Shown one piece after another: positions 16,292-63,503 of a DNA stretch of 64,000 bases. Source of the DNA: a virus (Duplodnaviria > Caudoviricetes); the IMG/VR virus record IMGVR_UViG_3300029288_000077, positions 119,766 through 183,765 of that record; one strand, given 5' to 3'. The stretch's first letter is position 1. Each line of letters begins with the position of its first letter. The position numbers and the translations under genes were made by a program. Below the pieces are notes generated by a model. The model had not been told where the DNA came from and made no database searches. It worked only from the letters and a program-made list of their open reading frames with translations.

Positions 16292-16326
16292 GCGAACCTC
16301 CTAATTGAAAACTTGATCCTAAGACC

Positions 16327-16395: not shown

Positions 16396-16405
16396 ATAAG
16401 ACGGT

Positions 16406-16702: not shown

Positions 16703-16792
16703 TTTGTGTACTACCCTTTCTGGTAACTACTTTGCTGTAGATTATCAAAATGGTCAACAGTATCCCGATACCAGTATGCACAAATTCGCTCA

Positions 16793-17065: not shown

Positions 17066-17092
17066 ATTCCTTCTCCTGTGATAGTATGAGTT

Positions 17093-17323: not shown

Positions 17324-17326
17324 AGT

Positions 17327-17545
17327 TTACCACCCCACATTTCTATGTCCAGTGGTTTTGCTGTATACTTGGTTTCCGTATTCATCCCAAACGGCGTCAA
17401 TTTCGTAACCATAAAAGGTTCCGTGTTTCTTGAGGTACTTCTCTTCTGCTGCGTGCATGGCATCCACGGTGTTTTCAGCACGTACACGCACCTGTGATTT
17501 GCACTCACCGTCAGTTTCCTTGAACTTGACTGTGTATAGATTCAT
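17327..17545 (-). CDS. Hypothetical protein
   Basis: 72-aa ORF with AAGGAG SD. Confidence 0.7.
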   Translation of the reverse strand: MNLYTVKFKETDGECKSQVRVRAENTVDAMHAAEEKYLKKHGTFYGYEIDAVWDEYGNQVYSKTTGHRNVGW

Positions 17546-46783: not shown

Positions 46784-47290
46784 ATGAAGACAGCAAAGAA
46801 GATACCGGTGTCTGAGTGCGTGGTTGGCAAAGAGTATGTTACTGAGTACGGCAGAGTAGTACAAATGGTTTCTGGGGGGCAACAAAAATCAAAGTTTCTG
46901 GTGCTTCTTACAAAGAAAACGGTAGAAATGGAAAATGATTATACTGTGTATGACAAGGAAGAACTGATGAAAGCGAACGCAGAATGCAGTAGCAGTGAAG
47001 ACGAATCAGTTGCCGTTCCTCCGCCAGAAGTCCTGTGTAAAGACACAAATGAATTTGTTGATGTGAAAGGATCCGGTATTTCTGCTAGGCAGTTAGTAAA
47101 AGAGAAACTGCTTGAAGGTCCACAGACCAGGGATTCGTTGGCAAAGGCCATCGTTGATAACGGTCTTTCCAAGAATACCGACACGAAGAAAGTTAAATGC
47201 TACGTAAGCGTGATTTTGGCTAACCTAAAGAAGAAGGACGGGTTGAATATTGTGTCTGACAAGCCAGGCAGCTACCATATTGAGCAGTGA
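46784..47290 (+). CDS. Hypothetical protein with a probable C-terminal winged helix
   Basis: Start MKTAKK after GGAGAGG; C-terminal HTH-plus-wing pattern. Confidence 0.55.
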   Translation: MKTAKKIPVSECVVGKEYVTEYGRVVQMVSGGQQKSKFLVLLTKKTVEMENDYTVYDKEELMKANAECSSSEDESVAVPPPEVLCKDTNEFVDVKGSGISARQLVKEKLLEGPQTRDSLAKAIVDNGLSKNTDTKKVKCYVSVILANLKKKDGLNIVSDKPGSYHIEQ

Positions 47291-49842
47291 TGCGTCCAGA
47301 TACTTGCAACAAGAAATGTGGTAGATATGCACTAGAATTGGAGCATCCTTGTATCCGTGGTAGGGGCAATAAACAAGCGAAAGTGATGTTTGTTGGTGAG
47401 AGTCCAGGACAAAATGAAGACAATCAGGGTAAATGCTTTGTTGGCAGAGCCGGTCAATTATTAATACAAGAGATAAAAGGTGTCGGTATAGAGTCAAAAG
47501 ATGTTTACCTTACAAATATAGTGAAATGCGCATTCCCAAAGGTAAACAAGAAACCGTCTGATGCAGAAGCCAAACACTGCAAGCAATACATAGAAAAAGA
47601 AATAGAAGAGATAAAGCCTAATTTGATTGTGTTGCTGGGGGACTTTGCGTGTGAAACATTAATTGGCCGGGGTAGTATAAAAAAGATACAGAACAACTTT
47701 TTTGTGTATGAGCCCACAAACACAAAAGTCATACCATTGTTGCATCCGGCATATGTACTAAGAAACCCAGAAGAGATAGTAAAGTTTAGGGAAGGGATGC
47801 AATTGATTGCCCAGGAATTGCACTCTCCTGATATGGTATACAAGTCATCCATAAAAGAAAATTATTTGGTTGCTGACACTGAACAAAAAGCACTAAAAAC
47901 ATTAAATAAGTTGATGGAAGTATCCGCTTTTTCGGTGGACATAGAAACTTCTGGATTAGACTATAGAAACAGTGACATACTGAGCATACAATTTTCGTGG
48001 CAACCGGGAGTTGGCATAACAATTCCGTGGAACATTGTGGTTGAAAGTAAAGTTGTATATGATTTATTGAAGCAAGTGCTGTCGAGAAAAGACGCAGTAA
48101 AAGTAGGTACCAACCTCAAATTCGATATTCAACATCTGGCCAAAGCAAAGATAGCTATTGCACCACCCATTCATGACATAATGTTAGCTGACAGCCTGAT
48201 TGACGAAAATGCTATTGATCACAAACTCGAAACCATGATCTTGCGTATGACAGACATGGGTGAGTACTGGTCAGAACTTGAAAAATACAAGCTTCAAATC
48301 ATGGCGGAGAAGAAAATCAAGGAAGAAGACTTTTCTTATGCACTGTTGCCAAAACCAGTATTGTATCTGTACGGTGCAAAGGACACAGACGGAACTTTTA
48401 GAATATACCTGCAACAATTAAAGGAGCTAAACCGGCAGGGGCTTACTGAGTTTTTTGAAAGATATTCCATGCCATTTATGCCTGTTTTGGCTGAGATGGA
48501 ATATCGCGGTGTGAAGGTGGATCGTGATCGTGCTTTCGTAATGCTGAAAGAACAAGAGAAGTTAATGGAGGAGTTGTCTGCCAAAACGCTGGAAGACGAA
48601 AACGTAAAGAAATATGAAGAATTTAGATCCAGGAAAGCAAAAGAGGAACTAAAGGAGCACAGAAAGAAGTCTAAAACGCTGGTTTCTAGGTTTCCTGATG
48701 AGAACGTATATGTTGAGGAACGAATAAAAAAGATGGGCGACAAATGGCACGATGAGTATAGATTTAACCCGAATTCTTCCGCTCAAATGAAAGAACTGTT
48801 CTTTGATATGCTTGGTCTTGTTCCTGTGAAGATGACCAAACCAAAAAAAGGCAGTAATGCAAAACCGCAACCAAGTACTGACAAAGATGTTATGGAAGTA
48901 ATAGCTGAAAGGGATCAAATCAGTCTAGCCATTTTGATGAGAGAGTACGCTTTGGTGTCAAAATTTGTTACTAACTTTATGCGGCCGGTGTATGAACTGT
49001 CGGAATTTGATGGTAGAATACACACTAACTACATTCAAACCGATGTGGTTACTGGTAGGTTGAGTAGTCGTTCACCAAACCTGCAGAATATGAGTCGTGA
49101 TCGGCCAGAATTTAAGGACCTGTTCGTGGCTGATGATGGGATGGTGTTTGTAAAGGGTGACTTGGCGCAGGCAGAGTTTAGGGTGTGGGCCAATGCTTCT
49201 GATGATGAAGATATGATTCGTGACATTATGTCTGGATTAGACATTCACAGGCGCACAGCTAGTGAGGTGTTTGAAATTGCAGAAGAAGAAGTAACCAAAA
49301 AGCAGCGTGAACCCGCTAAGCGCGGCACGTTCGGAATGATGTATGGCATCGGGTCAAAAACACTTGCGCAGAGATTTAAGATTACACTGGATCAAGCCAA
49401 AAAGATTTTGAAAGTGTTTTCAGAGAGATACCCAGTGGCTACTGCATGGATTTACAGTTTGCCGAAGATAGCGCATTCAAAGAAGCAAGTGCGAAGTATA
49501 TTAGGGCGAATAAGGCACTTACCGCACATAGACAGTGATGATCAAGACACAGTAGCTAAGGCTGAGAGGCAGGCGATGAACAGCCCAGTGCAGGCTGCAG
49601 CCTCTGATATCAATAACCATTATATGACATGCGCCGTTAGAGAAGGAAGAAGAGCAAAAATAAAGTGTTATCCCGCATTGACCGTGCATGATGAAAACGT
49701 ATCGCAGGTAGAAGAATCAAGAGCAGAGGATTTTGCTAGAATTTACAAAAAAGTGGTGGACACTGAATTTCCGCAATTCAAGTGTAAGATGGGCGTAGAA
49801 ATAAAGATAGGCAAGAGAATCGGTTCCGCCGAAGAGTGGTGA
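47287..49842 (+). CDS. Family A DNA polymerase with N-terminal family-4 uracil-DNA glycosylase and 3'-5' exonuclease
   Basis: UDG: VGESPG, FVGRAG, TNIVKC, HPAY; exonuclease: DIETSG; polymerase: TGRLSS..PNLQN, DLAQAEFR, AKRGTFGMMYG, VHDE. Confidence 0.95.
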   Translation: MMRPDTCNKKCGRYALELEHPCIRGRGNKQAKVMFVGESPGQNEDNQGKCFVGRAGQLLIQEIKGVGIESKDVYLTNIVKCAFPKVNKKPSDAEAKHCKQYIEKEIEEIKPNLIVLLGDFACETLIGRGSIKKIQNNFFVYEPTNTKVIPLLHPAYVLRNPEEIVKFREGMQLIAQELHSPDMVYKSSIKENYLVADTEQKALKTLNKLMEVSAFSVDIETSGLDYRNSDILSIQFSWQPGVGITIPWNIVVESKVVYDLLKQVLSRKDAVKVGTNLKFDIQHLAKAKIAIAPPIHDIMLADSLIDENAIDHKLETMILRMTDMGEYWSELEKYKLQIMAEKKIKEEDFSYALLPKPVLYLYGAKDTDGTFRIYLQQLKELNRQGLTEFFERYSMPFMPVLAEMEYRGVKVDRDRAFVMLKEQEKLMEELSAKTLEDENVKKYEEFRSRKAKEELKEHRKKSKTLVSRFPDENVYVEERIKKMGDKWHDEYRFNPNSSAQMKELFFDMLGLVPVKMTKPKKGSNAKPQPSTDKDVMEVIAERDQISLAILMREYALVSKFVTNFMRPVYELSEFDGRIHTNYIQTDVVTGRLSSRSPNLQNMSRDRPEFKDLFVADDGMVFVKGDLAQAEFRVWANASDDEDMIRDIMSGLDIHRRTASEVFEIAEEEVTKKQREPAKRGTFGMMYGIGSKTLAQRFKITLDQAKKILKVFSERYPVATAWIYSLPKIAHSKKQVRSILGRIRHLPHIDSDDQDTVAKAERQAMNSPVQAAASDINNHYMTCAVREGRRAKIKCYPALTVHDENVSQVEESRAEDFARIYKKVVDTEFPQFKCKMGVEIKIGKRIGSAEEW

Positions 49843-51035
49843 CTGTTACGTGCTTAAATCTGCACGTCTACTCGGGGCACCGCGCCCCCGGCGCTGCAGC
49901 CCCAGCGCCAAGATATTGATACTAGCATTAAAATCACGATCTAAGACCAAGCCACACCTCGCGCAAGTATAAGTCCTGTCTTTTAGTTCAAGATCTTCCT
50001 TTATGTTACCACACTTTGAACACTTCTTCGACGTGTTTTTTGGATCTACTAGTACCACGTTTCTACCAGCCTCTTCCGCTTTGTAAGACGTGTACTGTAC
50101 CAGCATGTTCCAAGCTACGTCATGGATAGACTTAGCTAAGTGACCACCCTGTACCATACCCTTTATATTCAAGTCTTCAAACACGATCGTACCGTATTTA
50201 TTTACCAGTGCATTACTAAGTTTATGAGCGAAATCTTTACGTTGGTTTGATATTTTTTCGTATATCTTAGACACCGACTTTCTAAGATGTCTTCGTTCTT
50301 TAGATCCTTTTTTGGTCTTACTAAATTTACGCTGTACTCGTGCTAGTCTATTTTCTGATTTCTTGAAAAATCTCGGGTTTTGTATTATAGTACCATCTGA
50401 TAAAGTAGCGAATTTTTCTAACCCTAAATCTATACCGACTGATTTATCTTCATGCGGTAATCGTACTGGGTCTACTTCTACACTAATAGTGGCGTACCAC
50501 TTATTTGTAGGTGTGTGTCTAATAGTGATAGTCTTGACTTTACCTAGAATTGGACGGTGAAAGACAGCAGAAACAGTACCTATTTTACTAAGTCTGATAC
50601 CTGTATCTTCTATAAAAGCTCCACACGTATTAGCTTGAGGATAAATAAAACTGTCGTATCTATTTTTACCCTTGAAACGAGGGAAACCTGGATTTTGCTT
50701 GGCTTTTACTCGTCTGAAAAACGCTTTGTAAGCTAAATCAACACGCATTTGTACATTGGTTAGTAACTGCGAGTATACTGTATTCCAATGGGTGTTGGTC
50801 TTCTTCCATTGTGTAAGGAGTTTTTGAGTGTCATATAAGAATATTGATTTCTTTTCTGTTTCGTATGCGGTTTTTCTTATGTCAAGTGTTTTATTGTAGA
50901 CTTGACGACAGATTTCTAATGTAGTATTAAGTGAAGTGACTTGAGCGTGTGTTGGATAAAGACGAAACTTGAAAAACTTACGCACGAAAATATAGTAACA
51001 TGACTCAATGAAAAGTCATTAATGAATGTAAGATT
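49839..51035 (-). mobile_element. IS200/IS605 family (tnpB only) element 2
   Basis: On the minus strand preceded by AGAAC and ending ...CACGTAACAGTCAC; homologous to element 1. Confidence 0.8.
49846..50985 (-). CDS. tnpB: RNA-guided endonuclease TnpB
   Basis: GIDLG, FEDL, DRDFNA and Zn finger intact; same length (379 aa) as copy 1. Confidence 0.95.
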   Translation of the reverse strand: MRKFFKFRLYPTHAQVTSLNTTLEICRQVYNKTLDIRKTAYETEKKSIFLYDTQKLLTQWKKTNTHWNTVYSQLLTNVQMRVDLAYKAFFRRVKAKQNPGFPRFKGKNRYDSFIYPQANTCGAFIEDTGIRLSKIGTVSAVFHRPILGKVKTITIRHTPTNKWYATISVEVDPVRLPHEDKSVGIDLGLEKFATLSDGTIIQNPRFFKKSENRLARVQRKFSKTKKGSKERRHLRKSVSKIYEKISNQRKDFAHKLSNALVNKYGTIVFEDLNIKGMVQGGHLAKSIHDVAWNMLVQYTSYKAEEAGRNVVLVDPKNTSKKCSKCGNIKEDLELKDRTYTCARCGLVLDRDFNASINILALGLQRRGRGAPSRRADLST

Positions 51036-53039: not shown

Positions 53040-53624
53040 ATGGCAAAAGTAAAGCGTGACGATTCTAACAATCCGTGGGCTGTTGATCCCGGTGTGTATG
53101 AAGCTATCATCATTGCAATTGAAGAGAAGAAGGGCCAGCAAGGCAGGGAATTTTTGTCATGGAAATTCAAAATTCAGGAACCCATACAGAATGGTGAGCC
53201 GTGCGAGAACGATGTTACTATTAATGGTGGCTCACCAATGGTGTTCCGTGAGGGAGATAAGCTAGACAAGTGGCTGAACGCCTGTGGCATTACTCTAGAA
53301 GATAATGATGAATTTGACCTCGATGCCGTGATAGGTTCACGAGTGCAAGTGGTGGTGGAGAAGAACAAGAAGGGCTATGATCAAGTAACCAACGTGCTAC
53401 CGATTCGCAAGAAGTCGCAGCAAAAGACTCAACAAAAGCAAGAAGAGGAGGCAGAAGAGGGAAAGCCCACAAAGGCACAGGAGAAGCCGAAGCAGGCCGC
53501 AAAGCCCGCACCAAAGCAGGAAGAACCTGCTGAGGATGAGGCACCACCTCCGCCCAAGAACAAGCCCAAGCCGAAGCCCGCCGAAGAAGCCAGCGACGAA
53601 GACGTGTTTGACTTTGACGCATGA
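53040..53624 (+). CDS. Single-stranded DNA-binding protein (phage OB-fold type)
   Basis: 'PGVYEAII' beta-rich N-domain, Pro/Lys/Glu linker and acidic aromatic tail DEDVFDFDA. Confidence 0.7.
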   Translation: MAKVKRDDSNNPWAVDPGVYEAIIIAIEEKKGQQGREFLSWKFKIQEPIQNGEPCENDVTINGGSPMVFREGDKLDKWLNACGITLEDNDEFDLDAVIGSRVQVVVEKNKKGYDQVTNVLPIRKKSQQKTQQKQEEEAEEGKPTKAQEKPKQAAKPAPKQEEPAEDEAPPPPKNKPKPKPAEEASDEDVFDFDA

Positions 53625-54679
53625 AAATACTGCACACCGCTGACTTGCAGTTTGGTGCACCAAACCAACCAAAGGTGTACTATACTGAGCCTATCAACGC
53701 CCTGTCGAAGTTTTGCAGGGACAACGATATAGGGATGGTGCTGATAGCGGGCGATGTGTTTGATCATCCAGCACCCAGTCAGCGGCACAAGGATCTGTTA
53801 ATTGAACAGTTTATAGCTAATGAAGACATACTTTTCGTGTTGTCTGTTGGAAACCACGATGTATACAAAACCGAGAAAACGTACGGAGGGTTGAATACTT
53901 TCAAGATACTGCACAAGCATCTCAAAAACGTAGCGGTATTGGACGGGGACGAAAAGGGCATAGAATATAAGATACATCCTTATGAAAAGGAATTCAAGTT
54001 TTTGTCTTTGATGGGTGATTGGGACAAACTGTGCCCGAAAAAGCAATCAGGAACTACCATCGCTGTGTGGCATGGTGAGGTGCCTGGTGTGTTGAATGGT
54101 GACAGCGGTGCAGCCACAGAGTTCATAAAAAAATATAACCTGTCATACCTGGCGCTTGGTCATATACACAAAAGGATAAGTTTTCCGGGTGGTGGGTATC
54201 CAGGCGCAATCATACCAAAAACGTACGTCTGCGAACATGGGGTGTATATACTGGACACCGAAAAGCTAACAAGAGACTTTGTGCCGCAATCAAGTTTTCT
54301 AGATTTACCACTTAGGTACTCGTTCAAGGTTGAAATCGACGCGGAGGATAGTGAACAAACCATTGTTGATGCCATTGAGAAACAAGGCATAGCAGATGGA
54401 TCGTTGATAAAGATCAAGCTTTCCGTGCCCATGTCAAAGTGGAAAACGATTGCTACGAGAAGCATCATTGAAAAATTGAATGGAAAGTTTTTGGAAGTAA
54501 AAATTACCAATGATGTAGTACCAGAAAGAGATCAGCGAAAAAATGCAGAATTGATTTACAAAGCAAAGTCGTTTGAAGAAGAGATGTCGGTGATTTTTGA
54601 CTCCATGGAAATAGATAGTAACTTTGATAGAGACAGGCTGATGAAAGAGTGTTGTGGGTGGTTCAACAATGCGGTGTGA
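53621..54679 (+). CDS. SbcD/Mre11/gp47-like nuclease
   Basis: HTADLQ, AGDVFD, GNHD, WHG and LALGHIH. Confidence 0.92.
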   Translation: MKILHTADLQFGAPNQPKVYYTEPINALSKFCRDNDIGMVLIAGDVFDHPAPSQRHKDLLIEQFIANEDILFVLSVGNHDVYKTEKTYGGLNTFKILHKHLKNVAVLDGDEKGIEYKIHPYEKEFKFLSLMGDWDKLCPKKQSGTTIAVWHGEVPGVLNGDSGAATEFIKKYNLSYLALGHIHKRISFPGGGYPGAIIPKTYVCEHGVYILDTEKLTRDFVPQSSFLDLPLRYSFKVEIDAEDSEQTIVDAIEKQGIADGSLIKIKLSVPMSKWKTIATRSIIEKLNGKFLEVKITNDVVPERDQRKNAELIYKAKSFEEEMSVIFDSMEIDSNFDRDRLMKECCGWFNNAV

Positions 54680-54684
54680 AACAA

Positions 54685-55617
54685 ATGGTATTATCATTAG
54701 AACAGTTGCAGTGGCTGGCAGGGATTATTGATTCAGAAGGATCCATAACACTCAGAAATTCGTTTTTTCATGATAATAGAAAATCTGGCAAAATGAAGGC
54801 ATCAAGAAACGGAAGAATTACCATAGCCACATGCGACAATGTAATAGTACCTTTTATAAGTGAGCTTGTTGGTATAAATTACAAAATTTTGAATAGGAAA
54901 ACGGCTGCTGGTAATAGTATATACTCAATTATAATTGGTGACAAGAAAACACTGAAGGATTTATTACCAAAAATTATTCCATACATGTTCACTAAACAAC
55001 CCCATGCGCGCATACTTCTTAAATCACTGTTTCTTCCATCTGGTCGTTTTTATACTGATGAAGAGTCTATTATGCACAAAGAGCTAACAAATAAAATAAG
55101 AATTCTTAATAGCAGAGGTTATGGAATACAAGATGAGTTAGAATCAAGGGATCACCTTTTTACATACTCGTGGTTTGCTGGTGTGATTGATGGAGATGGG
55201 TGTGTGTCTGCCGGTGAGTGGAAGATAAAAAGTAGAAATGGGATACAACGTTCCGTGTTGAAGCCATATTTGAAAATATCTTTATCACACATTAAGACCG
55301 TGGAGTATTTATCGTTTGTATTGCAAACTGGCATACTGAAATCCGGCAGAGAATTGTCGTGTCGCACCAACAGAAGGAAAACAAGAGCAATAAGGCTCAT
55401 GCCAGAAAAACTTATGATTTGGCTTCCAAGGGTAATGCCACATCTAAGGCTAAAAAGAAATCAGGCAGAACTGGCATTGCAGTTATCCAAACTAAAAAGT
55501 GACTACAAGAACCACAAAATTGTGTTGAGCGATGAATATAAGTCTGAAGTGTGTAGAATGTACAATGCTATAAAATCTCTGAACAGAGGCAAGAAAAATG
55601 ATCAACAAGTGTGTTGA
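54685..55617 (+). CDS. Free-standing double-motif LAGLIDADG homing endonuclease
   Basis: WLAGIIDSEGSI and WFAGVIDGDGCV, each followed by a 'PY/PH..K..(H/Q)A' tail. Confidence 0.92.
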   Translation: MVLSLEQLQWLAGIIDSEGSITLRNSFFHDNRKSGKMKASRNGRITIATCDNVIVPFISELVGINYKILNRKTAAGNSIYSIIIGDKKTLKDLLPKIIPYMFTKQPHARILLKSLFLPSGRFYTDEESIMHKELTNKIRILNSRGYGIQDELESRDHLFTYSWFAGVIDGDGCVSAGEWKIKSRNGIQRSVLKPYLKISLSHIKTVEYLSFVLQTGILKSGRELSCRTNRRKTRAIRLMPEKLMIWLPRVMPHLRLKRNQAELALQLSKLKSDYKNHKIVLSDEYKSEVCRMYNAIKSLNRGKKNDQQVC

Positions 55618-56908
55618 TGCGCTGGTGGGACTTCAAGCTGGATCAGAAGGCAAGGGGAAATTGGTTGGATCTTTGTCAAAAGACTATAAGTATTTAGTAA
55701 GAACGGGTGGCACGAATAGTGCTCACACCACATACTGTAACGGCAGAAAATACTTGTTTCATCAATTGCCGTGTGGGTCGGTAAACTTTCCTAAGGCAAA
55801 ATTAGTACTGGGTGCAAATACGCACATTGATTTGGAATATTTACAAAAAGAAATACAAATATTAAGGGATGGTGGGTGCTGGCTGGTAGACGGCAAGCCT
55901 AGATTGTACATTGACAAAAACGCATCATTGGTTGACCCAGTAGACAAGATAGCTGAAAATGGTGGGTTTATGCCGAAGTGTGGTGAGATGTACTTTCATC
56001 CTCGTGACTGTGAGAAACATGCTCAGCTTGGTGGTACATGTATTGGATGTGATAATATATCCAAGGACAGCGCGTGGGTGAAACTCGGAAGCACAACACA
56101 CGGGTGTGGAGCGAACGCCATTAGACGTATTCTGCGCGGATCAAAAATGGCTTTGATGTCTGGAAAACAGTTTGATCTAAAATCGTACTTGTTCAAGAAA
56201 GCGGCAGAAATTGGAAGAGTAAACCCAACGATGTATGATATAATTACTGCATTTGAGAAAGTTACTGATTGGTCGGAGTGGGTTGATAATGAGCCCATAA
56301 GATTTGCACCAGAGGATGAATTTGTGAAGCAGTTTGTGTGTGATACAGTAGACTTGCTTAATACTGCAATAGACAACAATGAAGAAGTGCTGCTAGAAGG
56401 AACACAGGGATCCTTGTTGTCGTCATATCACGGCTATATGGGAAAAACTACGTCGCGTGATACTAATGTGTCTACTTGGTGCGCTGAGGCAGGCATCAGC
56501 CCTGTGTGTGTTAGAGATGTATATGGCGTGGCGCGTGTTTATCCTATAAGGGTAGCAGGAAATTCTGGTGACCTGTCCGGCGAAGAAATTACTTGGGAAC
56601 AGGTAACTGTTGAAGCTGAATCACCTGTGCTCATTGTAGAACTGACATCGGCCACTCGCAGAAAGAGACGTGTTTTCCGTTTCGGTGACGCTGATTTCAG
56701 GAAGTCCGTTCAAATAAACAGGCCAACGAAATTGATGCTTACTTTTGTGGATCAGCACCATTATTCAAATCGTGGTAAGAATAATTGGTGTGAATTGGCA
56801 GAAGGTTCACGCAAGTGGATTGAAGACGTAGAGAAGCGTCACGGTGTGTTTTTCAATTACATATCAACTGGCCCTGATCAGGGTGATACCATCGTTCGGG
56901 AAAAGTGA
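55598..56908 (+). CDS. purZ: Adenylosuccinate-synthetase-family enzyme of the PurZ/PurZ0 type
   Basis: GSEGKG (Ser at the PurA Asp13 position), NSAHT, EGTQG, TSRD, YPIRVAGNSG, TFVD and STGP; family certain, PurZ activity inferred. Confidence 0.7.
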   Translation: MINKCVDALVGLQAGSEGKGKLVGSLSKDYKYLVRTGGTNSAHTTYCNGRKYLFHQLPCGSVNFPKAKLVLGANTHIDLEYLQKEIQILRDGGCWLVDGKPRLYIDKNASLVDPVDKIAENGGFMPKCGEMYFHPRDCEKHAQLGGTCIGCDNISKDSAWVKLGSTTHGCGANAIRRILRGSKMALMSGKQFDLKSYLFKKAAEIGRVNPTMYDIITAFEKVTDWSEWVDNEPIRFAPEDEFVKQFVCDTVDLLNTAIDNNEEVLLEGTQGSLLSSYHGYMGKTTSRDTNVSTWCAEAGISPVCVRDVYGVARVYPIRVAGNSGDLSGEEITWEQVTVEAESPVLIVELTSATRRKRRVFRFGDADFRKSVQINRPTKLMLTFVDQHHYSNRGKNNWCELAEGSRKWIEDVEKRHGVFFNYISTGPDQGDTIVREK

Positions 56909-58875
56909 TGTTGGCAGACTTTTCATTACTAGAGCTATGGATTGATGGGTTTATAGGATATGGTACTGTTCGTCTTGACTTGTCGAAGGAAGGTGTGACC
57001 TACATACGTGGTAAAACCGGGTCTGGTAAGTCTACTATACCAGAGGCCATTTTTTATTTGCTGTTCGGAGATACGCTTCGTGAGAGTACTTCTGTGCAGG
57101 ATTTGGAGAATAAATATGTAGGTGGTGGGTATGAAATCGGATTGAAGTATAAAAAAGGAAAGCATACTTATCAAGTGTGTGAGATCCGCAATAGAGGAAA
57201 GAAAGACGGATTGTACTTTGCTGAAGATGCAGAATTAGATTTTGGTGTGAGAGATGACGTAAAGTCTGTAAAAAAGAAGATACTTGAGTCCGTTGGTATG
57301 ACCAAAGAGGAGTTTTGTGCCAAGGCGTTTATAGGACAAAATCAGTCGTATGCACTGATAAAAGGCACTCCAGAGAAAAGAGCGAAGACGCTTGTAAAGA
57401 TGTTTTCGCTAGATAAGTACGATTCCCCCATTTCTGAGATAGATGCACACGTAAAACAGTTGAAATCGAAAGTACTTGACATTGACAAGGACTTGGTTGG
57501 GGTGCGGGGTAAAATAGCCGAATTGAGTTCTGTACTAAGTTCCTTGGAGAAGCCGCAGGAAGTAGTTAGTGAAAGTGCTGATGAGCTGGAAGGAAAACTA
57601 GAGAAGATAAAGGCAAAAATCAAAAAAATTAGGCAGATGGAGTCGGACAACACCAAGAAGATTGGAGACATAAATTTCGCAGACAAGGTAAGAAATAATT
57701 GTGAAAAGATGCAGGAAGAGGTAAAGCTATTAAAGGGCAGTTTGAACGAATTTTCTGGGTTGCCTGAATTGTCTGTTGTTGATAAAGAAATTTTGAAGAT
57801 TGATAAACAGGTGGCTGCTATAGAGCATGAATTGCAGTCCATCAATGTGTCTATTAGGAAGCTTGATAATCTAAATCCATTGTGTCCAGTTAACAATAAA
57901 GACTGTCCTGTGAATGTGCCCGCTGAGTACCGTGATTCGAATCTGAAAGACTTGAATTGCAGACAATCTGAATTGAACAAACAGAAGGGTGAACTTGAAA
58001 AGGGCAGGGAAGAAAAAAGTAAAATAAAGTCGAAGGCTAGATCTAAGGAAGAGATCACTACTAAGATTAGGATAAAGATGGGTGAGATTGATAAGTATTC
58101 TGATGTGGAACTACCAGAAAAGACCAAAGAGGAATTAGAGGCAGAAATCAAAAAGTGTTATGAAGCCATTGAAGAAGGTGATGAAAAAGCACATGAAATA
58201 GAAGAGAAAATTAGAGCTATTAGAACTTACCAAGAGTTGGTAACTTCCTATGAAAAATCCACAAAAACAGCCACAGAACGCATTCAGAGATGCGAAGAAG
58301 ACACAAAACGTCTGGAGTCTGAGAAAGCGGATTTGGGTGTTGCCATAGGTTATGCGTCTTTGTCATTGTCAGCATTCAAGTTACTTAGGTCGTATAAGAT
58401 AGACTTGGTGATTGATAATCTGAATGCCAATCTGCAGAGAAACTTAGACAGGATTTTTGAAGGAGACATAAAGGCGTCATTTAAATCCAAGGACGAATCT
58501 TCTGATAGTAAACGAATGATTGAAAGAGTAACCATGGATTTTATGAAGTCTTCGTCTATGACACCTATACCTATCGGTATGGTGTCTGGTGGGCAAGAGG
58601 CATACGTTACTGTGGCTTTGATTTTGGCCATTCGAGAGACTGTGGAATCTTTGCACGGCGACAAATTATCATTTATGTTCCTGGATGAAGTGTTTGGACC
58701 AGTGAGTGATGATATGGTAAATTCAGTATTTGAGTCTATGGCAGCCATTTGCAGGGATGTGGGCATAAGTTCCTTGAAAGTGATTTCCCACAAAAACATA
58801 GATGAATCGCTGTGTGATCACATTTGGGATGTGTCATCAGACGGGGAAATATCATCGTTGGTGGAGACTAAATGA
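56905..58875 (+). CDS. SbcC/Rad50/gp46-like ATPase
   Basis: GKTGSGKST, Q-loop, long coiled coil, VSGGQ, FLDEVFG and VISH. Confidence 0.93.
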   Translation: MMLADFSLLELWIDGFIGYGTVRLDLSKEGVTYIRGKTGSGKSTIPEAIFYLLFGDTLRESTSVQDLENKYVGGGYEIGLKYKKGKHTYQVCEIRNRGKKDGLYFAEDAELDFGVRDDVKSVKKKILESVGMTKEEFCAKAFIGQNQSYALIKGTPEKRAKTLVKMFSLDKYDSPISEIDAHVKQLKSKVLDIDKDLVGVRGKIAELSSVLSSLEKPQEVVSESADELEGKLEKIKAKIKKIRQMESDNTKKIGDINFADKVRNNCEKMQEEVKLLKGSLNEFSGLPELSVVDKEILKIDKQVAAIEHELQSINVSIRKLDNLNPLCPVNNKDCPVNVPAEYRDSNLKDLNCRQSELNKQKGELEKGREEKSKIKSKARSKEEITTKIRIKMGEIDKYSDVELPEKTKEELEAEIKKCYEAIEEGDEKAHEIEEKIRAIRTYQELVTSYEKSTKTATERIQRCEEDTKRLESEKADLGVAIGYASLSLSAFKLLRSYKIDLVIDNLNANLQRNLDRIFEGDIKASFKSKDESSDSKRMIERVTMDFMKSSSMTPIPIGMVSGGQEAYVTVALILAIRETVESLHGDKLSFMFLDEVFGPVSDDMVNSVFESMAAICRDVGISSLKVISHKNIDESLCDHIWDVSSDGEISSLVETK

Positions 58876-61289
58876 CAAAGCTAAATCAAGCAGCCATAGA
58901 TGTACTGAAACGTGACTATCTTCACGGTGATGAGACACCGGAAGATATGTTTAGGCGGGTCGCCAGGACAGCAGCCATCCCGAATTTTGTTGATGGTGTG
59001 TTGAAGAGATGCAGAAAGTCGCCTGCTTCAGAAAATGCAGATGATCTGATTGAAACACTGTCGCGTGTTGGTTTTCAGTTAAAAAACGGAGCAGAGATTT
59101 ACAAATTGGTGATGAAAAGGAGGGGCGTAGACTATCATAAATACACATCTTTTCTGAGAAACCGAAAAATGTTTGAGGAGTTACTGAATACATTTAATGA
59201 ACAGGTAGATATGTATTATGCGCTTATGAGTGAATTGACTTTTATGCCTGCTACGCCTACACTAATAAACGCCGATTATAATGGTATGCTTTCAAGCTGT
59301 TTCTTTATGCGAATTGAAGACTCAATAGAAGACATATTTGAAAAGATAAAGAAAGCAGCCATCATTTTGAAGTGTGGTGGCGGTGTTGGTTTTGATATGA
59401 GTCTTATACGACCTGCTGGGTCTGTGGTGTCCAGTAGTGGGGGAAAAGCTACAGGTGTAGTTTCCTACATGAAAATTATTAATGCTATGGGCGAGCAAAT
59501 AAATCAAGCTGGTATTAGAAAAGCTGCTATGATGGCCATTTTGGATGTTTCACACCCAGACATCTGTGATTTTATACGATGCAAAAAAGTGGAAGGTGAT
59601 TTGTCGAATTTTAATGTTTCTGTTATGATTAACAATAAATATATGAGTCGTTTGATAAATAATAAGGAATCACCAGTTATATTAAAGTTTGCTGACCAGC
59701 AATACTATATAATCATGAAAGGGATAGGTAAATCTGCAGAGTACATAAAGGTGCCGATTAATGATGTTGATACTATTGACACCGATGATAGGAAGTGTCT
59801 GAAATACGGTGATTTATGGAAAATGATCGTCGAAAGTGCTTGGGACAATGGCGAGCCTGGTATCATATTTGAAGATCAACTGGAGAAGTCAGATGTGTTT
59901 GACGGAAAATATGGCAAGCTTGGTGTAAATCCGTGTGGGGAGATCCCTCTATTATCATTTGCAAGTTGCAATTTAGCTTCTATTAACCTAAATTCTACCA
60001 GGTTTGGATCTGATGGTGTGTTTGATTATGAAGAGTTCAAAAAAGTGGTGTGGGTTGGTGTGCGTTTTCTTGATAATGTGATTGATGTAAATAAATATCC
60101 GTTACCAGAAATAGAAGAAGTTACGTTGCGTGGTAGGCAAATAGGTTTGGGAGTTATGGGCTTACATGATCTTATGCTAAGACTTGGTATAAAGTATGGT
60201 TCTGAGAAGTCTCTAGAACTGGTGTCCAATATCTATAAGGTGATGCAAGAAGCATCGTTATGTACTTCAGAAAAGCTGTATGAACAACGCGGTGCTCCTA
60301 CGGAATTGATTGAAGCTCTGTCAAGTAAGGGTGTGAAGCTAAGGAGAAACTCTAATCTTTTGTCGGTTCAACCAACTGGATCGACTGCATGGATTTGTAA
60401 CCAAGCATCGAGTTCCATAGAGCCGGTATTTAAATTTTTATACATTCGAAGAGACTCGCATGGTGAGCACGAAGTAAAACATCATATAGTAAGAGATGAT
60501 GGAAAACTGCCGGAGTTTGCGGTCACTGCACTTGATATAACCGCAAAAGAGCATGTTGACGTACAAGCAGAAGTGAATAAGTATGTGGACAACAGTGTTT
60601 CCAAGACTATCAATATGCAAGAGACATCCTCTGTTGAGGATGTTAGTGAAGCGCTTATTTATGCGTTCAAGAGAGGGTGCAGATCTGTTACTGTGTATAG
60701 GAGCGGAAGCAGAAAAAACGAAGTATTGATAAATGGTAGTAAAAAAGAAGACAAAGAAACAAAGGTGATACACAAAGATAGAGATCCGAGGAAGCGACCG
60801 CGTGTTTTGTTTGGTGCCACATTCAGTGTAAATACTCCTTCTGGTAGATGTTTTATTACTATCAATGAAGACAAACATGGTGTGCGCGAGATGTTTGCGC
60901 ATTCTCATAAAGCAGGAAGTGAGATAGCAACGCACCTAGAAGCCGAAGGTAGAATGTTTTCAAATTCTATGAAGCACTGGGTGCCATTAGAATCCGTAAT
61001 AGAACACTTATTAGATAATAAATCAACTCCTGTATTTGATAATGGGAGGTTTATTAAGAGCATACCGGATGCAATGGCTAAAACAGTGAAAGAGTATCAG
61101 GATCAATTTCTTGGTTTCTCTGAGTACCTAGAAGCGAGCGGTGAAATTCCTAATATATATTCTGAAAAGATGCAACAGCCTCCTGGCTCTGACTTTAACG
61201 GAGAAATATGCCCAGAATGTGGTGATACACTTTACGCTGTGTCTGGGTGTGAAGAGTGCAAGAGTTGTGGTTACTCTCGGTGTGGATAA
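58872..61289 (+). CDS. nrdJ: Class II (adenosylcobalamin-dependent) ribonucleotide reductase with C-terminal TSCPD/Zn ribbon
   Basis: PATPTL.NA, LSSCF, GGGVG, NPCGE, CNLASINL, QPTGS, SVSKTIN, VTVYR.GSR and CPEC...C..CGYS.C; no adjacent small-subunit gene. Confidence 0.9.
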   Translation: MTKLNQAAIDVLKRDYLHGDETPEDMFRRVARTAAIPNFVDGVLKRCRKSPASENADDLIETLSRVGFQLKNGAEIYKLVMKRRGVDYHKYTSFLRNRKMFEELLNTFNEQVDMYYALMSELTFMPATPTLINADYNGMLSSCFFMRIEDSIEDIFEKIKKAAIILKCGGGVGFDMSLIRPAGSVVSSSGGKATGVVSYMKIINAMGEQINQAGIRKAAMMAILDVSHPDICDFIRCKKVEGDLSNFNVSVMINNKYMSRLINNKESPVILKFADQQYYIIMKGIGKSAEYIKVPINDVDTIDTDDRKCLKYGDLWKMIVESAWDNGEPGIIFEDQLEKSDVFDGKYGKLGVNPCGEIPLLSFASCNLASINLNSTRFGSDGVFDYEEFKKVVWVGVRFLDNVIDVNKYPLPEIEEVTLRGRQIGLGVMGLHDLMLRLGIKYGSEKSLELVSNIYKVMQEASLCTSEKLYEQRGAPTELIEALSSKGVKLRRNSNLLSVQPTGSTAWICNQASSSIEPVFKFLYIRRDSHGEHEVKHHIVRDDGKLPEFAVTALDITAKEHVDVQAEVNKYVDNSVSKTINMQETSSVEDVSEALIYAFKRGCRSVTVYRSGSRKNEVLINGSKKEDKETKVIHKDRDPRKRPRVLFGATFSVNTPSGRCFITINEDKHGVREMFAHSHKAGSEIATHLEAEGRMFSNSMKHWVPLESVIEHLLDNKSTPVFDNGRFIKSIPDAMAKTVKEYQDQFLGFSEYLEASGEIPNIYSEKMQQPPGSDFNGEICPECGDTLYAVSGCEECKSCGYSRCG

Positions 61290-61603: not shown

Positions 61604-62041
61604 ATGATTGATACAGTTGAACAGCACATAGTCAATGAGACGAAAAGGCTGTTCTTTGAGAATGAATTGCTTATGGATTGGATTAGGTCCTTGAACGGTG
61701 TTCCTAGGTGCGCGGTTTGCGGTAAGCCGGTATATAATGCATCTATTCAACGACTTTTAAGACCGTTTCATTGGGATACCAGAAGATGTTTTGAATTTAA
61801 ACCAAGGAAGATAGTTGCGCTTGAAAAAGAATACGGAATGGATATTGTTGAGATACTGAAACTTACTACTGAGAAGTATGGAAAAATAAAAGCACAATGT
61901 CAAGCACTGAACATTTCTCCGCCCTACTTTTATGATATAGTGAAGAGATACTGTGGAGACGTAGTTGAATTTATGGCAAAACACGCTTCTGGAAGAAGGA
62001 AGCAAGAATACGTTGATAAACTCAAACTCAGGTCTGCATAA
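61604..62041 (+). CDS. Hypothetical Zn-finger/HTH protein
   Basis: CAVCGK; 'QCQALNISPPYFYDIVKR' HTH-like segment. Confidence 0.6.
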   Translation: MIDTVEQHIVNETKRLFFENELLMDWIRSLNGVPRCAVCGKPVYNASIQRLLRPFHWDTRRCFEFKPRKIVALEKEYGMDIVEILKLTTEKYGKIKAQCQALNISPPYFYDIVKRYCGDVVEFMAKHASGRRKQEYVDKLKLRSA

Positions 62042-62259
62042 GCAAGCGGTTTGGTCAGGATACTCCCAGCCATACGTACAGAACATAGTTAGTGGTGGGT
62101 TGAAGGTGCTGAAGTTACTGGGCGCTTTGACGTTTGATGCACAACTTTTGCTGTGGGTAAAAGGTCTTGAAGGGCACTTAAACAGGATGATGGAAAAAGC
62201 CCGTAAGCAAAAAGAGAAAGAGGAGTCATACCGATTCACGGTTTGATAGGAGAGACGTC

Positions 62260-63030
62260 ATGAAGAAAGCGGCTAAGTACAAGAAGTTGGCTTCTGTAAA
62301 CCCGGAAAAGAAGACCCGTGAGGCTGCCAAGGCGCGTGTGTTTGACGGTTTGGCGGAGTTCGCCAAAAATCGCGGGTACCGCGCCGACCTGGTGGTGTCT
62401 GCTGCTTCTAAGAAGCAGGCTAAGATAATCAGTGCTGTGGTCAAGTTTGACAAGCAACTTGGTTTTCCCCACGAAAACGATCTTATGGCACTGGTTGCTT
62501 CTAAGTTCCCAACTCATCAGATTGATTGGGCAACTATAGAGGCAGATACTGAGGGTGACACGCTCAGCCTAAACCTGCAGCCAAAGGCTGATGTGATCCC
62601 GCTCAATAGCGTAAAGGATATACCCAACGAATTTAAGTCTATTGGCTCTGGTATCTTCAAGCGGCGTGCTGTAGCTGCTGGCAACGTTTTCGAGATTTGG
62701 GAGCTGAAGCGCGAGGCTGACGGTCTTTCGCTGGTTCGTAAGATGGATGATGTGGAAACAGACACCGAAAATGACAGTGCGGAAGTGTTTTCCAAGGGTG
62801 ACTTGGTTGAAACTGAGCACGGCGCTGGAAAAATTACTGATTTTGATCCAGTTGGTAATGCTATTGTTCAGGTTGGTTCACATAAGCGAATTGTAGCACA
62901 AGAAGATATGAAAAAGTATGAGCCTAAAAAGGATCAGAAGGCGCTGTTAGAGTACTACACCTCCTTGTATGGTGCTGAGTTCGCACAGGGGCTCATAAAA
63001 GACTTTTCTGATCCTGTAATGAAGAAGTAA
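62260..63030 (+). CDS. Hypothetical protein
   Basis: 256-aa ORF with AGGAGA SD; starts a new gene block. Confidence 0.75.
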   Translation: MKKAAKYKKLASVNPEKKTREAAKARVFDGLAEFAKNRGYRADLVVSAASKKQAKIISAVVKFDKQLGFPHENDLMALVASKFPTHQIDWATIEADTEGDTLSLNLQPKADVIPLNSVKDIPNEFKSIGSGIFKRRAVAAGNVFEIWELKREADGLSLVRKMDDVETDTENDSAEVFSKGDLVETEHGAGKITDFDPVGNAIVQVGSHKRIVAQEDMKKYEPKKDQKALLEYYTSLYGAEFAQGLIKDFSDPVMKK

Positions 63031-63041
63031 TCGAGGTTGAC

Positions 63042-63494
63042 ATGGGCAAGGTACTTTCTAACTATGAGTTTGCGGTGGTGGCTTCCAAGCAATCACCGTG
63101 GATGGCAGCAAAAGCCAAAAAGAGATTGGTGAGTGCCGTAAAGGGTTTCGTATCTCGTTCTGACCTGAATGTGATTTTGGCCGAGTGCGTGGCCTGTAAC
63201 AAACCAGAAGATGCTAAGTGGATTCGGGCAGTCATGTCTGCCTATGATTCAGGGAAGTTATCTAACCTGCGTCAGGACAAGGGTGACTGGGTGACCCACC
63301 TAGCACACGTCCGGGTGCTTTCTGACTCAAAGAAGATACCTTTCGGGCTTCGGGAAATGGTGATGGTTAAGGACACCGGGATGGTGGGTCAGGTGATGGA
63401 TTACTTAGTTGACAAGGATGAGTATGTGGTGGTATTGAATCCGTTTGAAATCAAACAGCTTCCTGCCAGCGCGCTGCTGAAGTCAAATAAATGA
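63042..63494 (+). CDS. Hypothetical protein with an SH3/KOW-like C-terminus
   Basis: 150-aa ORF with GAGGT SD. Confidence 0.7.
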   Translation: MGKVLSNYEFAVVASKQSPWMAAKAKKRLVSAVKGFVSRSDLNVILAECVACNKPEDAKWIRAVMSAYDSGKLSNLRQDKGDWVTHLAHVRVLSDSKKIPFGLREMVMVKDTGMVGQVMDYLVDKDEYVVVLNPFEIKQLPASALLKSNK

Positions 63495-63503
63495 GGTCTG
63501 CTT

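What the first reader, a model, noticed from the sequence alone, without database searches (positions are those of the whole stretch)
55598..56908. Divergent PurZ/PurZ0-type synthetase: likely 2-aminoadenine (Z) or a new purine modification in a large contractile-tailed phage
Seen: the P-loop is GSEGKG, not PurA's GDEGKG. The protein also has TSRD, YPIRVAGNSG, TFVD and STGP. Known: Asp13-to-Ser is the PurZ signature that makes room for the 2-amino group of dGMP. ATP-using PurZ has NFxN, while GTP-using PurA and PurZ0 keep TxxD, so this looks like the GTP-using PurZ0 branch. Unusual, by manual alignment: the aspartate-binding loop reads TSATRRKRR rather than TTVT and seems to keep the PurA Arg303 equivalent. 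There are also two insertions, one Cys/His-rich (CGEMYFHPRDCEKH...CIGC, possibly Zn-binding). No DatZ (HD dATPase) or MazZ gene is visible in 64 kb. Inference: either a Z genome with unknown companion enzymes, or a variant with different nucleotide or amine specificity.
Basis: partly seen in the sequence, partly recalled or inferred. Interest (0 to 1): 0.85.

Follow-up and report, generated by a model that had tools for sequence, protein, structure and literature searches.

The report
New PurZ-type clade in large phage
A complete 184-kb uncultured phage encodes an intact, divergent relative of PurZ, the enzyme that small phages use to replace adenine with 2-aminoadenine (Z) in DNA. It has an added zinc-binding module and none of the usual helper genes, so Z-type DNA in this phage is plausible but unproven.

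Summary

- **Placement:** it belongs to a metagenomic family of about 60 proteins, found on phage contigs of up to 186 kb. In an IQ-TREE analysis the family (UFBoot 100) lies inside the clade bracketed by PurZ0 and PurZ (UFBoot 90). It is nearer ATP-type PurZ (96) than PurZ0, and far from Asp13-bearing PurA.
- **Residues shared with PurZ/PurZ0:** Ser for Asp13, Thr350, Pro316 and Trp333.
- **Family-specific features:** a GTP-type Asp385 beside PurZ-like Phe383, the PurA-type Arg355, Ala14 in place of an aromatic residue, a Cys4/His insertion invariant in 60 of 60 members, and a helical insertion.
- **Missing partners:** the circular genome has no DatZ, MazZ, DUF550, DUF5664, DutZ, DmtZ, NUDIX or PurB. 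Seven related contigs also lack the helpers within 10 kb.
- **Indirect signal:** GC-rich 6-bp palindromes are purged and AT-rich ones are not. This fits an adenine-position modification but does not prove it.

Most likely this is a GTP-using dGMP-to-succino-aminodeoxyadenylate synthetase. It is a new variant of a known kind. This scan has flagged PurZ-type genes in other large phages before.

The parts
55598..56908 (+). PurZ-type adenylosuccinate-synthetase-family gene (436 aa, P0001)
   Evidence: ORF; PF00709; PHROG 1211; trees; AF2 model with pLDDT 96.1
55640..55657 (+). P-loop GSEGKG (residues 15-20), with Ser16 in place of PurA Asp13
   Evidence: Only 1 of 263 nearest homologues has Asp here. 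All PurA references have Asp; all PurZ and PurZ0 references have Ser.
55961..56077 (+). Cys4/His insertion (residues about 122-160), a probable structural zinc site just before the nucleotide 5'-phosphate loop GSTTHG
   Evidence: C128, C138, H141, C148 and C151 are invariant in 60/60 members. A four-Cys insert sits at the same site in some sister proteins. pLDDT is 93-96. It is absent from PurA, PurZ and PurZ0.
56153..56317 (+). Second, helical insertion (residues about 186-240), present in only part of the family
   Evidence: Alignments; helices 194-205, 212-218 and 224-228 in the model
56540..56602 (+). YPIRVAGNSG...EEITWEQ segment (Pro316, Trp333), a signature shared by the Ser13/PurZ groups
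   Evidence: Motif table; residue map to phiVC8 P233 and W252; literature
56639..56671 (+). Aspartate loop ELTSATRRKRR (348-358): Thr350 = phiVC8 T262, Arg355 = PurA R303
56738..56755 (+). NTP-base pocket LTFVDQ (381-386): Phe383 as in PurZ, Asp385 as in PurZ0 and PurA
56864..56875 (+). STGP (423-426), guanine-binding element kept from PurA
53621..54679 (+). SbcD/Mre11-type nuclease gene, upstream neighbour
   Evidence: PF00149; same order in L013
54649..55617 (+). Free-standing LAGLIDADG homing-endonuclease gene inserted between sbcD and the PurZ-type gene
   Evidence: PF00961. It is absent from this slot in the closest relative, L013, where sbcD and the PurZ-type gene are 12 nt apart.
56905..58875 (+). 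SbcC/Rad50-type ATPase gene; its start overlaps the PurZ-type stop
   Evidence: AAA_23 and SbcC_Walker_B
58872..61289 (+). Class II-type ribonucleotide reductase with a TSCPD domain, the constant neighbour of the PurZ-type gene in relatives
   Evidence: relatives
47287..49842 (+). Family A DNA polymerase with an N-terminal UDG-like domain and a 3'-5' exonuclease
   Evidence: only weak similarity to DpoZ (E 1e-8 to 1e-10)

Best explanation
The gene encodes a PurZ-type synthetase, an N6-succino-2-amino-2'-deoxyadenylate synthetase, belonging to a previously undescribed clade found in phages with contigs of about 100-186 kb. Inferred mechanism, by analogy with PurA, PurZ and PurZ0: the P-loop and His43 region transfer the gamma-phosphate of a nucleoside triphosphate to O6 of dGMP. 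That triphosphate is most likely GTP, because Asp385 and STGP are kept. The amino group of L-aspartate, held by the T350-x-x-T353...R355-x-R357-R358 loop, then displaces the phosphate. Ser16 and Thr350 leave room for the guanine 2-amino group. A cellular adenylosuccinate lyase and cellular kinases would convert the product to dZTP, and the phage's own family A polymerase would place it opposite T. Because the phage has no dATP-clearing enzyme, substitution may be partial. The invariant Cys4/His insertion is read as a structural zinc module beside the nucleotide-phosphate loop; its role is unknown. Shown here: family membership, residue conservation, phylogenetic position, gene context and absence of helpers. 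Inferred: substrates, product and presence of Z in the DNA.
For: - **Phylogeny:** the IQ-TREE consensus (100 sequences, LG+G4, UFBoot) gives long PurA, then archaeal short PurA (Asp13), then a Ser13 clade. Within it, a clade with support 90 holds PurZ0 and PurZ. A subclade with support 96 holds PurZ and this family, and the family itself has support 100. A 354-sequence FastTree gives the same topology.
- **Shared residues:** Ser16, Thr350, Pro316 and Trp333 match phiVC8 S14, T262, P233 and W252. The literature ties S14 and T262 to the dGMP 2-amino group and ranks W252 first among residues that separate dZ contigs from dA contigs.
- **Loop insertion:** the extra residues in RVAGNSG, which in PurZ push Val toward C2', are present.
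- **Catalytic core:** it is intact. G15, K19, H43, E267-G271, T285, R318 and R357 are invariant across 143 homologues.
- **Structure:** the AF2 model has pLDDT 96.1. It superposes on PurZ0 7vf6 (Z 42.1), PurZ 6fm1 (Z 41.5) and P. horikoshii PurA (Z 45.3).
- **Conserved context:** in seven relatives the gene lies in the replication and nucleotide module, beside a class II RNR in six and near RecA in five.
- **Palindromes:** 6-bp palindromes with 0 or 2 A/T positions are purged (O/E 0.39 and 0.70, nine sites absent). Those with 4 or 6 A/T positions are not (0.94 and 0.86). This matches the report that sites with 4-6 dZ are the most restriction-resistant.
Against: - No enzyme of this clade has been assayed.
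- The complete circular genome (127-bp end overlap) has no DatZ (HD or YfbR-like), MazG/MazZ, DUF550, dGTP_diPhyd_N (DUF5664), dUTPase/DutZ, NDT/DmtZ, NUDIX or Lyase_1/PurB. By contrast, every one of 98 PurZ0 genomes has dutZ and most PurZ genomes have datZ.
- Arg355 is kept; in PurA this residue contacts the ribose 2'-OH.
- Ala14 replaces the aromatic residue found in PurZ, PurZ0 and PurA.
- The phage encodes an MT-A70 adenine methyltransferase, and relatives carry Dam and Mom genes. This suggests ordinary adenine, or at least a free N6, remains in the DNA.
- NCBIfam PurZ scores 158 bits against a cut-off of 300.
- Several backbone tree nodes are weak (42-64).
- The palindrome pattern could simply reflect the host's set of restriction enzymes.
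Confidence: 0.55

Rival explanations
1. The enzyme works at the ribonucleotide level. It converts GMP (with aspartate and GTP) to N6-succino-2-amino-AMP. After lyase and kinase steps, the adjacent phage class II ribonucleotide reductase makes the deoxy form, so Z enters DNA by a ribo route.
For: Arg355, the equivalent of PurA R303 that contacts the ribose 2'-OH, is invariant in the family, whereas PurZ has Leu/Lys and PurZ0 has Lys. The gene is next to or near a class II RNR in this phage and in six of seven relatives. There is no dGTP-to-dGMP enzyme.
Against: The RVAGNSG loop insertion that is thought to exclude the 2'-OH in PurZ is present. Clustering with RNR may only reflect a general nucleotide module. 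Ribo-Z would also enter RNA pools.
Confidence: 0.12
2. It is an ordinary auxiliary PurA. It converts IMP to adenylosuccinate to raise the adenine nucleotide supply during infection.
For: The best sequence and structure match is archaeal PurA. The GTP pocket and Arg303 equivalent are kept. There are no Z helper genes.
Against: The catalytic base Asp13 is replaced by Ser throughout the family, and only 1 of the 263 nearest homologues has Asp there. About 99% of true PurA sequences keep Asp13. The family is nested between PurZ0 and PurZ, not with Asp13 enzymes. Thr350 replaces the PurA Gly.
Confidence: 0.08
3. The enzyme has a new specificity. It uses a different nucleotide or amine donor, or the succinylated product is itself the end product and ends up as a new hypermodified purine in DNA.
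For: Ala14 enlarges the region next to purine C2, and the loop has Ala352 where relatives have Val. The family has unique insertions. No PurB is found in the phage or in the co-binned genome. Mom-type N6-modifying genes lie within 10 kb in three of seven relatives.
Against: The aspartate loop is nearly identical to that of PurZ (TTATKRKRR against TTVTKxxRR), and all catalytic residues are kept. The host is unknown and probably supplies PurB. This phage has no Mom gene.
Confidence: 0.1
4. The enzyme manipulates nucleotide pools without any base substitution. For example, it drains dGMP/dGTP or produces a nucleotide that interferes with host defence or host replication.
For: Related Ser13 enzymes in bacteria sit in kinase-PurA-like/DUF7002/NUDIX operons beside defence-type genes. 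That shows the chemistry is used outside Z genomes. This phage has no helper or discriminating-polymerase signature.
Against: The phage family lies in the clade with the phage PurZ and PurZ0 enzymes, apart from the kinase-fused cellular clade. It sits in a conserved position in the replication module.
Confidence: 0.1

Closest known systems
PurZ (DgsS) of Vibrio phage phiVC8 and cyanophage S-2L (PDB 6FM1, 6FKO, 6TNH, 7ODX)
   Same: Same fold (Z 41.5, rmsd 1.9 over 322 residues). Ser for Asp13, Thr350 (= T262), Pro316, Trp333, Phe383, the extra residues in the RVAGxSG loop and the short archaeal-type C-terminal half are all shared. It is the nearest characterized clade in both trees.
   Different: Identity is only about 26%. 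The P-loop is GSEGKG rather than GSTGKG. Asp385 replaces the Asn/Gln that makes PurZ adenine-specific. Arg355 replaces Lys/Leu and Ala14 replaces Phe/Tyr. There are two insertions totalling about 100 residues, one of them a Cys4/His module. No datZ or mazZ lies beside it, and the phage is 184 kb rather than about 40 kb.
PurZ0 of Gordonia phage Archimedes and Arthrobacter phage Wayne (PDB 7VF6)
   Same: Ser13, a Glu-containing P-loop (GSEAKG against GSEGKG), RVAGNSG...TW(E/D), and Asp at the guanine-specifying position, so probably GTP use. Z 42.1. Best GenBank phage hits at 28% identity.
   Different: It is a separate clade, and the query family is closer to PurZ. It has Phe383 where PurZ0 has Met, and no dutZ, dmtZ or DUF5664. 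The insertions are absent from PurZ0.
Archaeal short adenylosuccinate synthetase (Pyrococcus horikoshii PH0438, PDB 5K7X/2D7U; NCBIfam NF003295)
   Same: Best sequence and structure match (E 2e-33; Z 45.3 with 333 of 337 residues aligned). Same short architecture, GTP pocket and Arg303 equivalent.
   Different: PurA has Asp13, Gly at the Thr350 position and no RVAGNSG/TWE signature. The query scores 200 bits against a cut-off of 368 and branches well inside the Ser13 clade.
Cellular Ser13 PurA-like paralogues (kinase-PurA-like fusion with DUF7002 and NUDIX neighbours; for example Pseudomonas putida and Terriglobus roseus)
   Same: GSEGKG P-loop, RV.GtSG motif and Arg at the R303 position; about 32% identical to the query.
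   Different: They are 530-560 aa with an N-terminal P-loop kinase domain. They are chromosomal and sit alongside a normal PurA, in a distinct operon. Those sampled in the IQ-TREE set form a separate clade outside the PurZ0-PurZ bracket. Their function is unknown, and a search of the paper library for DUF7002 found no paper.

Membership tests
Adenylosuccinate synthetase superfamily (PF00709) | Significant match to the family profile and the PurA fold | tested here: met
   151 bits against a cut-off of 27; Z 45 to solved PurA
Canonical PurA (IMP to adenylosuccinate) | Catalytic base Asp13 in the P-loop GDEGKG | tested here: not met
   Ser16 in GSEGKG; all nine PurA references have Asp; NCBIfam purA models are all below cut-off
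PurZ-type (PurZ + PurZ0) succino-aminodeoxyadenylate synthetases | Ser in place of Asp13 | tested here: met
   Ser16, invariant in the family
PurZ-type (PurZ + PurZ0) succino-aminodeoxyadenylate synthetases | Thr at phiVC8 T262, Trp at W252 and Pro at P233, plus the extra residues in the RV(A/G)GxSG loop | tested here: met
   T350, W333, P316 and RVAGNSG
PurZ-type (PurZ + PurZ0) succino-aminodeoxyadenylate synthetases | Aromatic residue two positions before the P-loop Ser (phiVC8 F12) | tested here: not met
   Ala14 in the query, and Ala in 12 of 15 sampled family members. In S-2L the literature attributes this contact to backbone atoms, so the weight of this feature is uncertain.
PurZ-type (PurZ + PurZ0) succino-aminodeoxyadenylate synthetases | Phylogenetic position within the clade bounded by characterized PurZ and PurZ0 | tested here: met
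   UFBoot 90 for the bracket and 96 for the subclade with PurZ; same topology in FastTree
PurZ-type (PurZ + PurZ0) succino-aminodeoxyadenylate synthetases | Catalysis of dGMP + Asp + NTP to dSMP | not testable with these tools
   Needs an enzyme assay
ATP-type PurZ (NCBIfam NF038379) | Score above the curated cut-off; NF.N(Y) adenine pocket; GSTGKG P-loop | tested here: not met
   158 bits against 300; TFVDQ with Asp385; GSEGKG
PurZ0 subgroup | Membership of the PurZ0 clade and co-occurrence with dutZ (reported in 98 of 98 genomes) | tested here: not met
   Separate clade; no dUTPase-family gene in the genome
Z-genome gene cluster | A dATP-removing enzyme (DatZ or DutZ) and a dGTP-to-dGMP enzyme (MazZ, DUF550 or DUF5664) in the genome | tested here: not met
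   No hit in the complete genome. The one HD protein is RelA/SpoT-type HD_4.
Z-genome gene cluster | 2-aminoadenine in virion DNA | not testable with these tools
   Needs LC-MS of nucleosides. Palindrome statistics are only circumstantial.

The most novel reading that the evidence does not exclude
Phages with contigs of about 100-186 kb use a helper-independent route to 2-aminoadenine-type DNA. The route is built on an enzyme that is an evolutionary intermediate between GTP-type PurZ0 and ATP-type PurZ: it has PurZ's Phe/Tyr pocket walls but keeps the guanine-specifying Asp. The enzyme carries an added zinc module that may regulate or dock it. In relatives that place a nuclease-Mom fusion beside it, the 2-aminoadenine (or residual adenine) may be further acylated at N6, giving a doubly modified purine.
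Probability: 0.2. Interest if true: 0.8.

Novelty: new variant of a known kind. Interest (0 to 1): 0.55.

Why it matters
The papers on natural Z-DNA read here describe it mainly in phages of roughly 40-80 kb that carry a compact purZ cluster with dATP- and dGTP-hydrolysing helpers.

A conserved PurZ-type clade in large phages, without any helper, would mean one of two things. Z substitution may be achievable with PurZ alone, perhaps partially or with polymerase discrimination. Alternatively, this branch of the family may do something else with guanine nucleotides.

The hybrid NTP pocket offers a natural intermediate for studying how ATP specificity evolved from GTP specificity. The invariant zinc insertion is a new structural element in the PurA fold. 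The large, uncharacterized Ser13 radiation seen in metagenomes and bacterial chromosomes shows that 'Ser13 = Z genome' is a wider inference than current papers test.

Tried and rejected
- **Helper genes:** I searched the complete genome with Pfam HD, YfbR-like, MazG, DUF550 (PF04447), dGTP_diPhyd_N (PF18909), dUTPase, NDT, NUDIX, Lyase_1 and Mom. I also ran phmmer with reference DatZ, MazZ, DutZ, DmtZ and neighbouring proteins from S-2L, phiVC8, Archimedes and Wayne. The phage contig gave no hits except a RelA/SpoT-type HD_4 protein, rejected as DatZ. The searches with PF04447 and PF18909 rang in no control genome, so their negatives are weaker.
- **PADLOC:** no hit for the protein.
- **Near-identical phage DNA in GenBank:** none.
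- **PHROGs on ten neighbouring or structural ORFs:** no hits, so I could not check the tail type.
- **IMG/VR scan:** the single-protein scan found nothing; the alignment-based scan worked.
- **Host link:** no spacer-like or att-like match between the phage contig and the rest of the bin, and the palindrome biases differ. I therefore do not treat the Patescibacteria bin as the host.
- **Restriction data:** per-enzyme results for dZ DNA (PvuII, XhoI, SacI, StuI) were not available in the held texts.
- **Zinc-site geometry:** this could not be measured because model coordinates are not exposed.
- **Structure comparison:** it does not separate PurA from PurZ, since all give Z 38-45.
- **LAGLIDADG as carrier of purZ:** rejected. 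The closest relative has the PurZ-type gene between sbcD and sbcC with no LAGLIDADG gene.
Full report
**Observation**

Window 55598-56908 (+) is an uninterrupted 436-codon ORF. It matches Pfam Adenylsucc_synt (E 5e-44) and PHROG 1211, annotated '2-aminooxy adenylosuccinate synthetase' (3e-56). All NCBIfam PurA and PurZ models match, but all below their curated cut-offs: archaeal PurA 200 against 368, PurZ 158 against 300.

Against solved structures by sequence, the best match is Pyrococcus horikoshii short PurA (2e-33). It is followed by phiVC8 PurZ (2e-25), PurZ0 of phage Archimedes (1e-23) and S-2L PurZ (1e-10). No GenBank phage has a closer relative than 28% identity, and the top hits are the Arthrobacter PurZ0 phages.

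**Genome setting**

The window is the last 64 kb of contig C2 (183,765 bp) of a 1.26-Mb bin. The last 127 bp of C2 repeat its first 127 bp, so the contig is a closed circle and the phage genome is complete.

The gene sits in the replication and recombination module. The order is:
- UvsW-like helicase
- DnaA-like loader
- DnaB
- primase zinc ribbon
- UDG-exo-PolA
- a TnpB gene on the other strand
- RecA
- DUF669
- SbcD
- a LAGLIDADG endonuclease
- the PurZ-type gene
- SbcC
- class II RNR with a TSCPD domain

The rest of the bin is a Patescibacteria genome, judged by EF-Tu (76-81% identity to CPR MAGs). It has no PurA and no Lyase_1/PurB. I found no sequence link between it and the phage. Its palindrome biases also differ from the phage's. 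I therefore do not take it as the host.

**Relatives**

The large protein collection holds about 60 proteins at 38-70% identity (P0002-P0063), on contigs of up to 186 kb. Two of these contigs, and three from a sister group, are also in IMG/VR at 112-178 kb.

Of the 263 nearest proteins from the two database searches, only one has Asp at the PurA Asp13 position. The most frequent P-loops are 195 GSEGKG and 35 GSEAKG. Known PurZ reads GSTGKG and PurZ0 reads GSEAKG.

The same signature is common in bacterial and archaeal chromosomes, with more than 549 loci. There it is usually a 530-560-aa fusion with an N-terminal P-loop kinase, followed by DUF7002 and often NUDIX. It sits alongside a normal PurA. 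So Ser13 alone is a broader signature than 'Z phage'.

**Phylogeny**

A FastTree of 354 sequences and an IQ-TREE LG+G4 analysis with 1000 ultrafast bootstraps on 100 sequences agree.
- Long PurA and thaumarchaeal short PurA, both with Asp13, branch first.
- A Ser13 clade follows. Within it, the kinase-fused cellular proteins sampled form their own clade (support 100).
- A clade with support 90 contains PurZ0 on one side. On the other side are PurZ, several metagenomic groups and the query family.
- PurZ and the query family share a subclade with support 96, and the family itself has support 100.

The protein is therefore inside the bracket defined by the two experimentally characterized enzyme groups, and it is nearer PurZ than PurZ0. 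Some internal nodes are weak (42-64), and my PurZ and PurZ0 sampling is small (nine sequences).

**Residues**

I mapped the positions highlighted in the literature onto the alignment.

Features shared with PurZ and PurZ0 and absent from PurA:
- Ser16 (phiVC8 S14)
- Thr350 (T262)
- Pro316 (P233)
- Trp333 (W252)
- the extra residues in RVAGNSG

The NTP pocket is a mosaic:

| Position | This protein or family | Matches |
|---|---|---|
| 383 | Phe | PurZ |
| 385 | Asp | PurZ0 and PurA |
| 386 | Tyr in most of the family, Gln in this protein | PurZ (Tyr), PurZ0 (Gln) |
| 423-426 | STGP kept | PurA |

This mosaic suggests GTP use. It also fits the family's tree position between PurZ0 and PurZ.

Family-specific features:
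- Arg355 at the PurA R303 position, where PurZ has Leu/Lys and PurZ0 has Lys
- Ala14 where all other groups have an aromatic residue
- Ala352 in the loop, giving TTAT (TSAT in this protein) instead of TTVT

The catalytic core is invariant across 143 homologues.

**Insertions and structure**

AlphaFold2 with a 143-sequence alignment gives pLDDT 96.1 and pTM 0.92, with no weak segment. VIA-align superposes about 320-335 residues on three structures:

| Structure | Z | rmsd (Å) |
|---|---|---|
| P. horikoshii PurA | 45.3 | 1.7 |
| PurZ0 (7vf6) | 42.1 | 1.9 |
| PurZ (6fm1) | 41.5 | 1.9 |

The remaining 100 or so residues are the two insertions.

The first insertion (residues about 122-160) contains C128, C138, H141, C148 and C151. 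All five are invariant in 60 of 60 full-length family members. A four-Cys insert occupies the same site in some sister proteins of about 390-420 aa. It lies immediately before the GSTTHG loop, which in PurA binds the nucleotide 5'-phosphate. I read it as a structural zinc site, but I could not inspect its geometry. The second insertion is helical and occurs in only part of the family.

**Companions**

The complete genome gave no hit to HD/YfbR-like DatZ, MazG, DUF550, dGTP_diPhyd_N, dUTPase, NDT, NUDIX or Lyase_1 on the phage contig. It also has no homologue of reference helper proteins. The single HD protein is a RelA/SpoT-type HD_4 hydrolase.

In seven related contigs the gene lies in the same module, with a class II RNR in six of them and RecA in five. 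No known helper lies within 10 kb in any of them. Mobile endonuclease genes cluster around it:
- LAGLIDADG in this phage and in one relative
- HNH-type genes in three relatives
- a Vsr-like nuclease fused to a Mom-family domain directly downstream in two relatives, with a Mom-domain gene about 10 kb away in a third

This phage has no Mom gene. It does encode an MT-A70 adenine methyltransferase.

**Indirect signal**

I compared counts of 6-bp palindromes in the phage with maximal-order Markov expectations.

| A/T positions in the site | O/E |
|---|---|
| 0 | 0.39 |
| 2 | 0.70 |
| 4 | 0.94 |
| 6 | 0.86 |

Nine GC-rich sites are entirely absent, including CAGCTG (0 against 34.5 expected). None of the AT-rich sites is absent. 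[quoted passage not shown] The pattern is therefore what a Z-type genome would show, but it could equally reflect the host's enzyme repertoire.

**Reading**

The most likely function is a GTP-using PurZ-type enzyme that makes dSMP from dGMP and aspartate, with host lyase and kinases completing dZTP (confidence 0.55). Membership of the PurZ-type clade is well supported. The substrate, the sugar specificity (Arg355) and the actual DNA composition are inferred.

The rivals are a ribonucleotide-level route coupled to the adjacent RNR, a plain PurA role, a new specificity, and pool manipulation without incorporation.

**Comparison and novelty**

The papers read here describe PurZ and PurZ0 with their helper sets. 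None mentions this insertion-bearing clade in large phages or a helper-free arrangement.

Earlier notes of this scan report PurZ-type genes in other large phages, nuclease-Mom fusions beside purZ, and a bacterial PurZ-type cassette. I treated these as leads and re-derived the overlapping points on my own data. I rate this a new variant of a known kind.

Noticed in passing
L013:2499-4166; L016:11313-12701; L195:21276 onward: In relatives, a Mom-family (PF25680) domain lies directly downstream of the PurZ-type gene or within 10 kb of it. It is fused to HTH repeats and a Vsr/DUF559-like nuclease motif. This phage has no Mom gene.
   Followed up: partly
L070:4906-8258 (Pseudomonas putida); L083:5419-7655 (Terriglobus roseus): There is a conserved bacterial operon of P-loop kinase, kinase-PurA-like (GSEGKG) fusion and DUF7002, with a NUDIX gene after it in P. 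putida. It sits next to a PIN-TPR-GreABC gene and in genomes that also have a normal PurA. More than 549 such PurA-like loci occur across phyla. PADLOC gave only weak kinase-domain hits to the operon's proteins (none to DUF7002), and no paper on DUF7002 was found.
   Followed up: partly
G000:C2 whole contig (window = C2:119766-183765): GC-rich 6-bp palindromes are strongly purged. CAGCTG, AGGCCT, CTCGAG, GAGCTC, GTCGAC, GGCGCC, GCCGGC, CCGCGG and GGGCCC are all absent, while AT-rich palindromes are near expectation. The co-binned chromosome shows no such bias; only TTATAA and GATC are low there.
   Followed up: yes
G000:C2 ends: The last 127 bp equal the first 127 bp, so the 183.6-kb phage genome is assembled as a circle.
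   Followed up: yes
G000 contigs other than C2: By EF-Tu the bin is a Patescibacteria (CPR) genome. It lacks PurA and any Lyase_1 family member. Nothing links it to the phage beyond binning.
   Followed up: partly
window 49846-50985 (-): An IS605-type TnpB gene (OrfB_IS605 plus Cas12f1-like TNB) is inserted on the opposite strand between the DNA polymerase and RecA genes.
   Followed up: no
window 47287-49842 (+): The family A DNA polymerase carries an N-terminal uracil-DNA-glycosylase-superfamily domain ahead of its 3'-5' exonuclease.
   Followed up: no
L279:7063-7704 (C2:7063-7704): An MT-A70-family adenine methyltransferase gene lies next to the primase core. An NAD-dependent DNA ligase, a sigma-70-type factor and an M23 peptidase are nearby.
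   Followed up: no
L006:252-2746 (C2:30266-32760): A cluster of DUF4326, a RelA/SpoT-type HD_4 hydrolase (a possible alarmone hydrolase) and a NADAR-DUF7695 protein.
   Followed up: no
L016:6577-9708 and 14948-17398; L196:434-4963; L013:6114-8843: In related phages the RNR and RecA genes carry inteins with LAGLIDADG domains. Together with the HNH and LAGLIDADG genes around the PurZ-type gene, this marks the module as a hotspot for homing elements.
   Followed up: no
window 1-11645 and 61604-63998: Ten ORFs of 145-1017 aa had no PHROG match at 1e-5, and the four between 61604 and 63998 had no Pfam match either. Much of this phage's proteome is unannotatable with current libraries.
   Followed up: no
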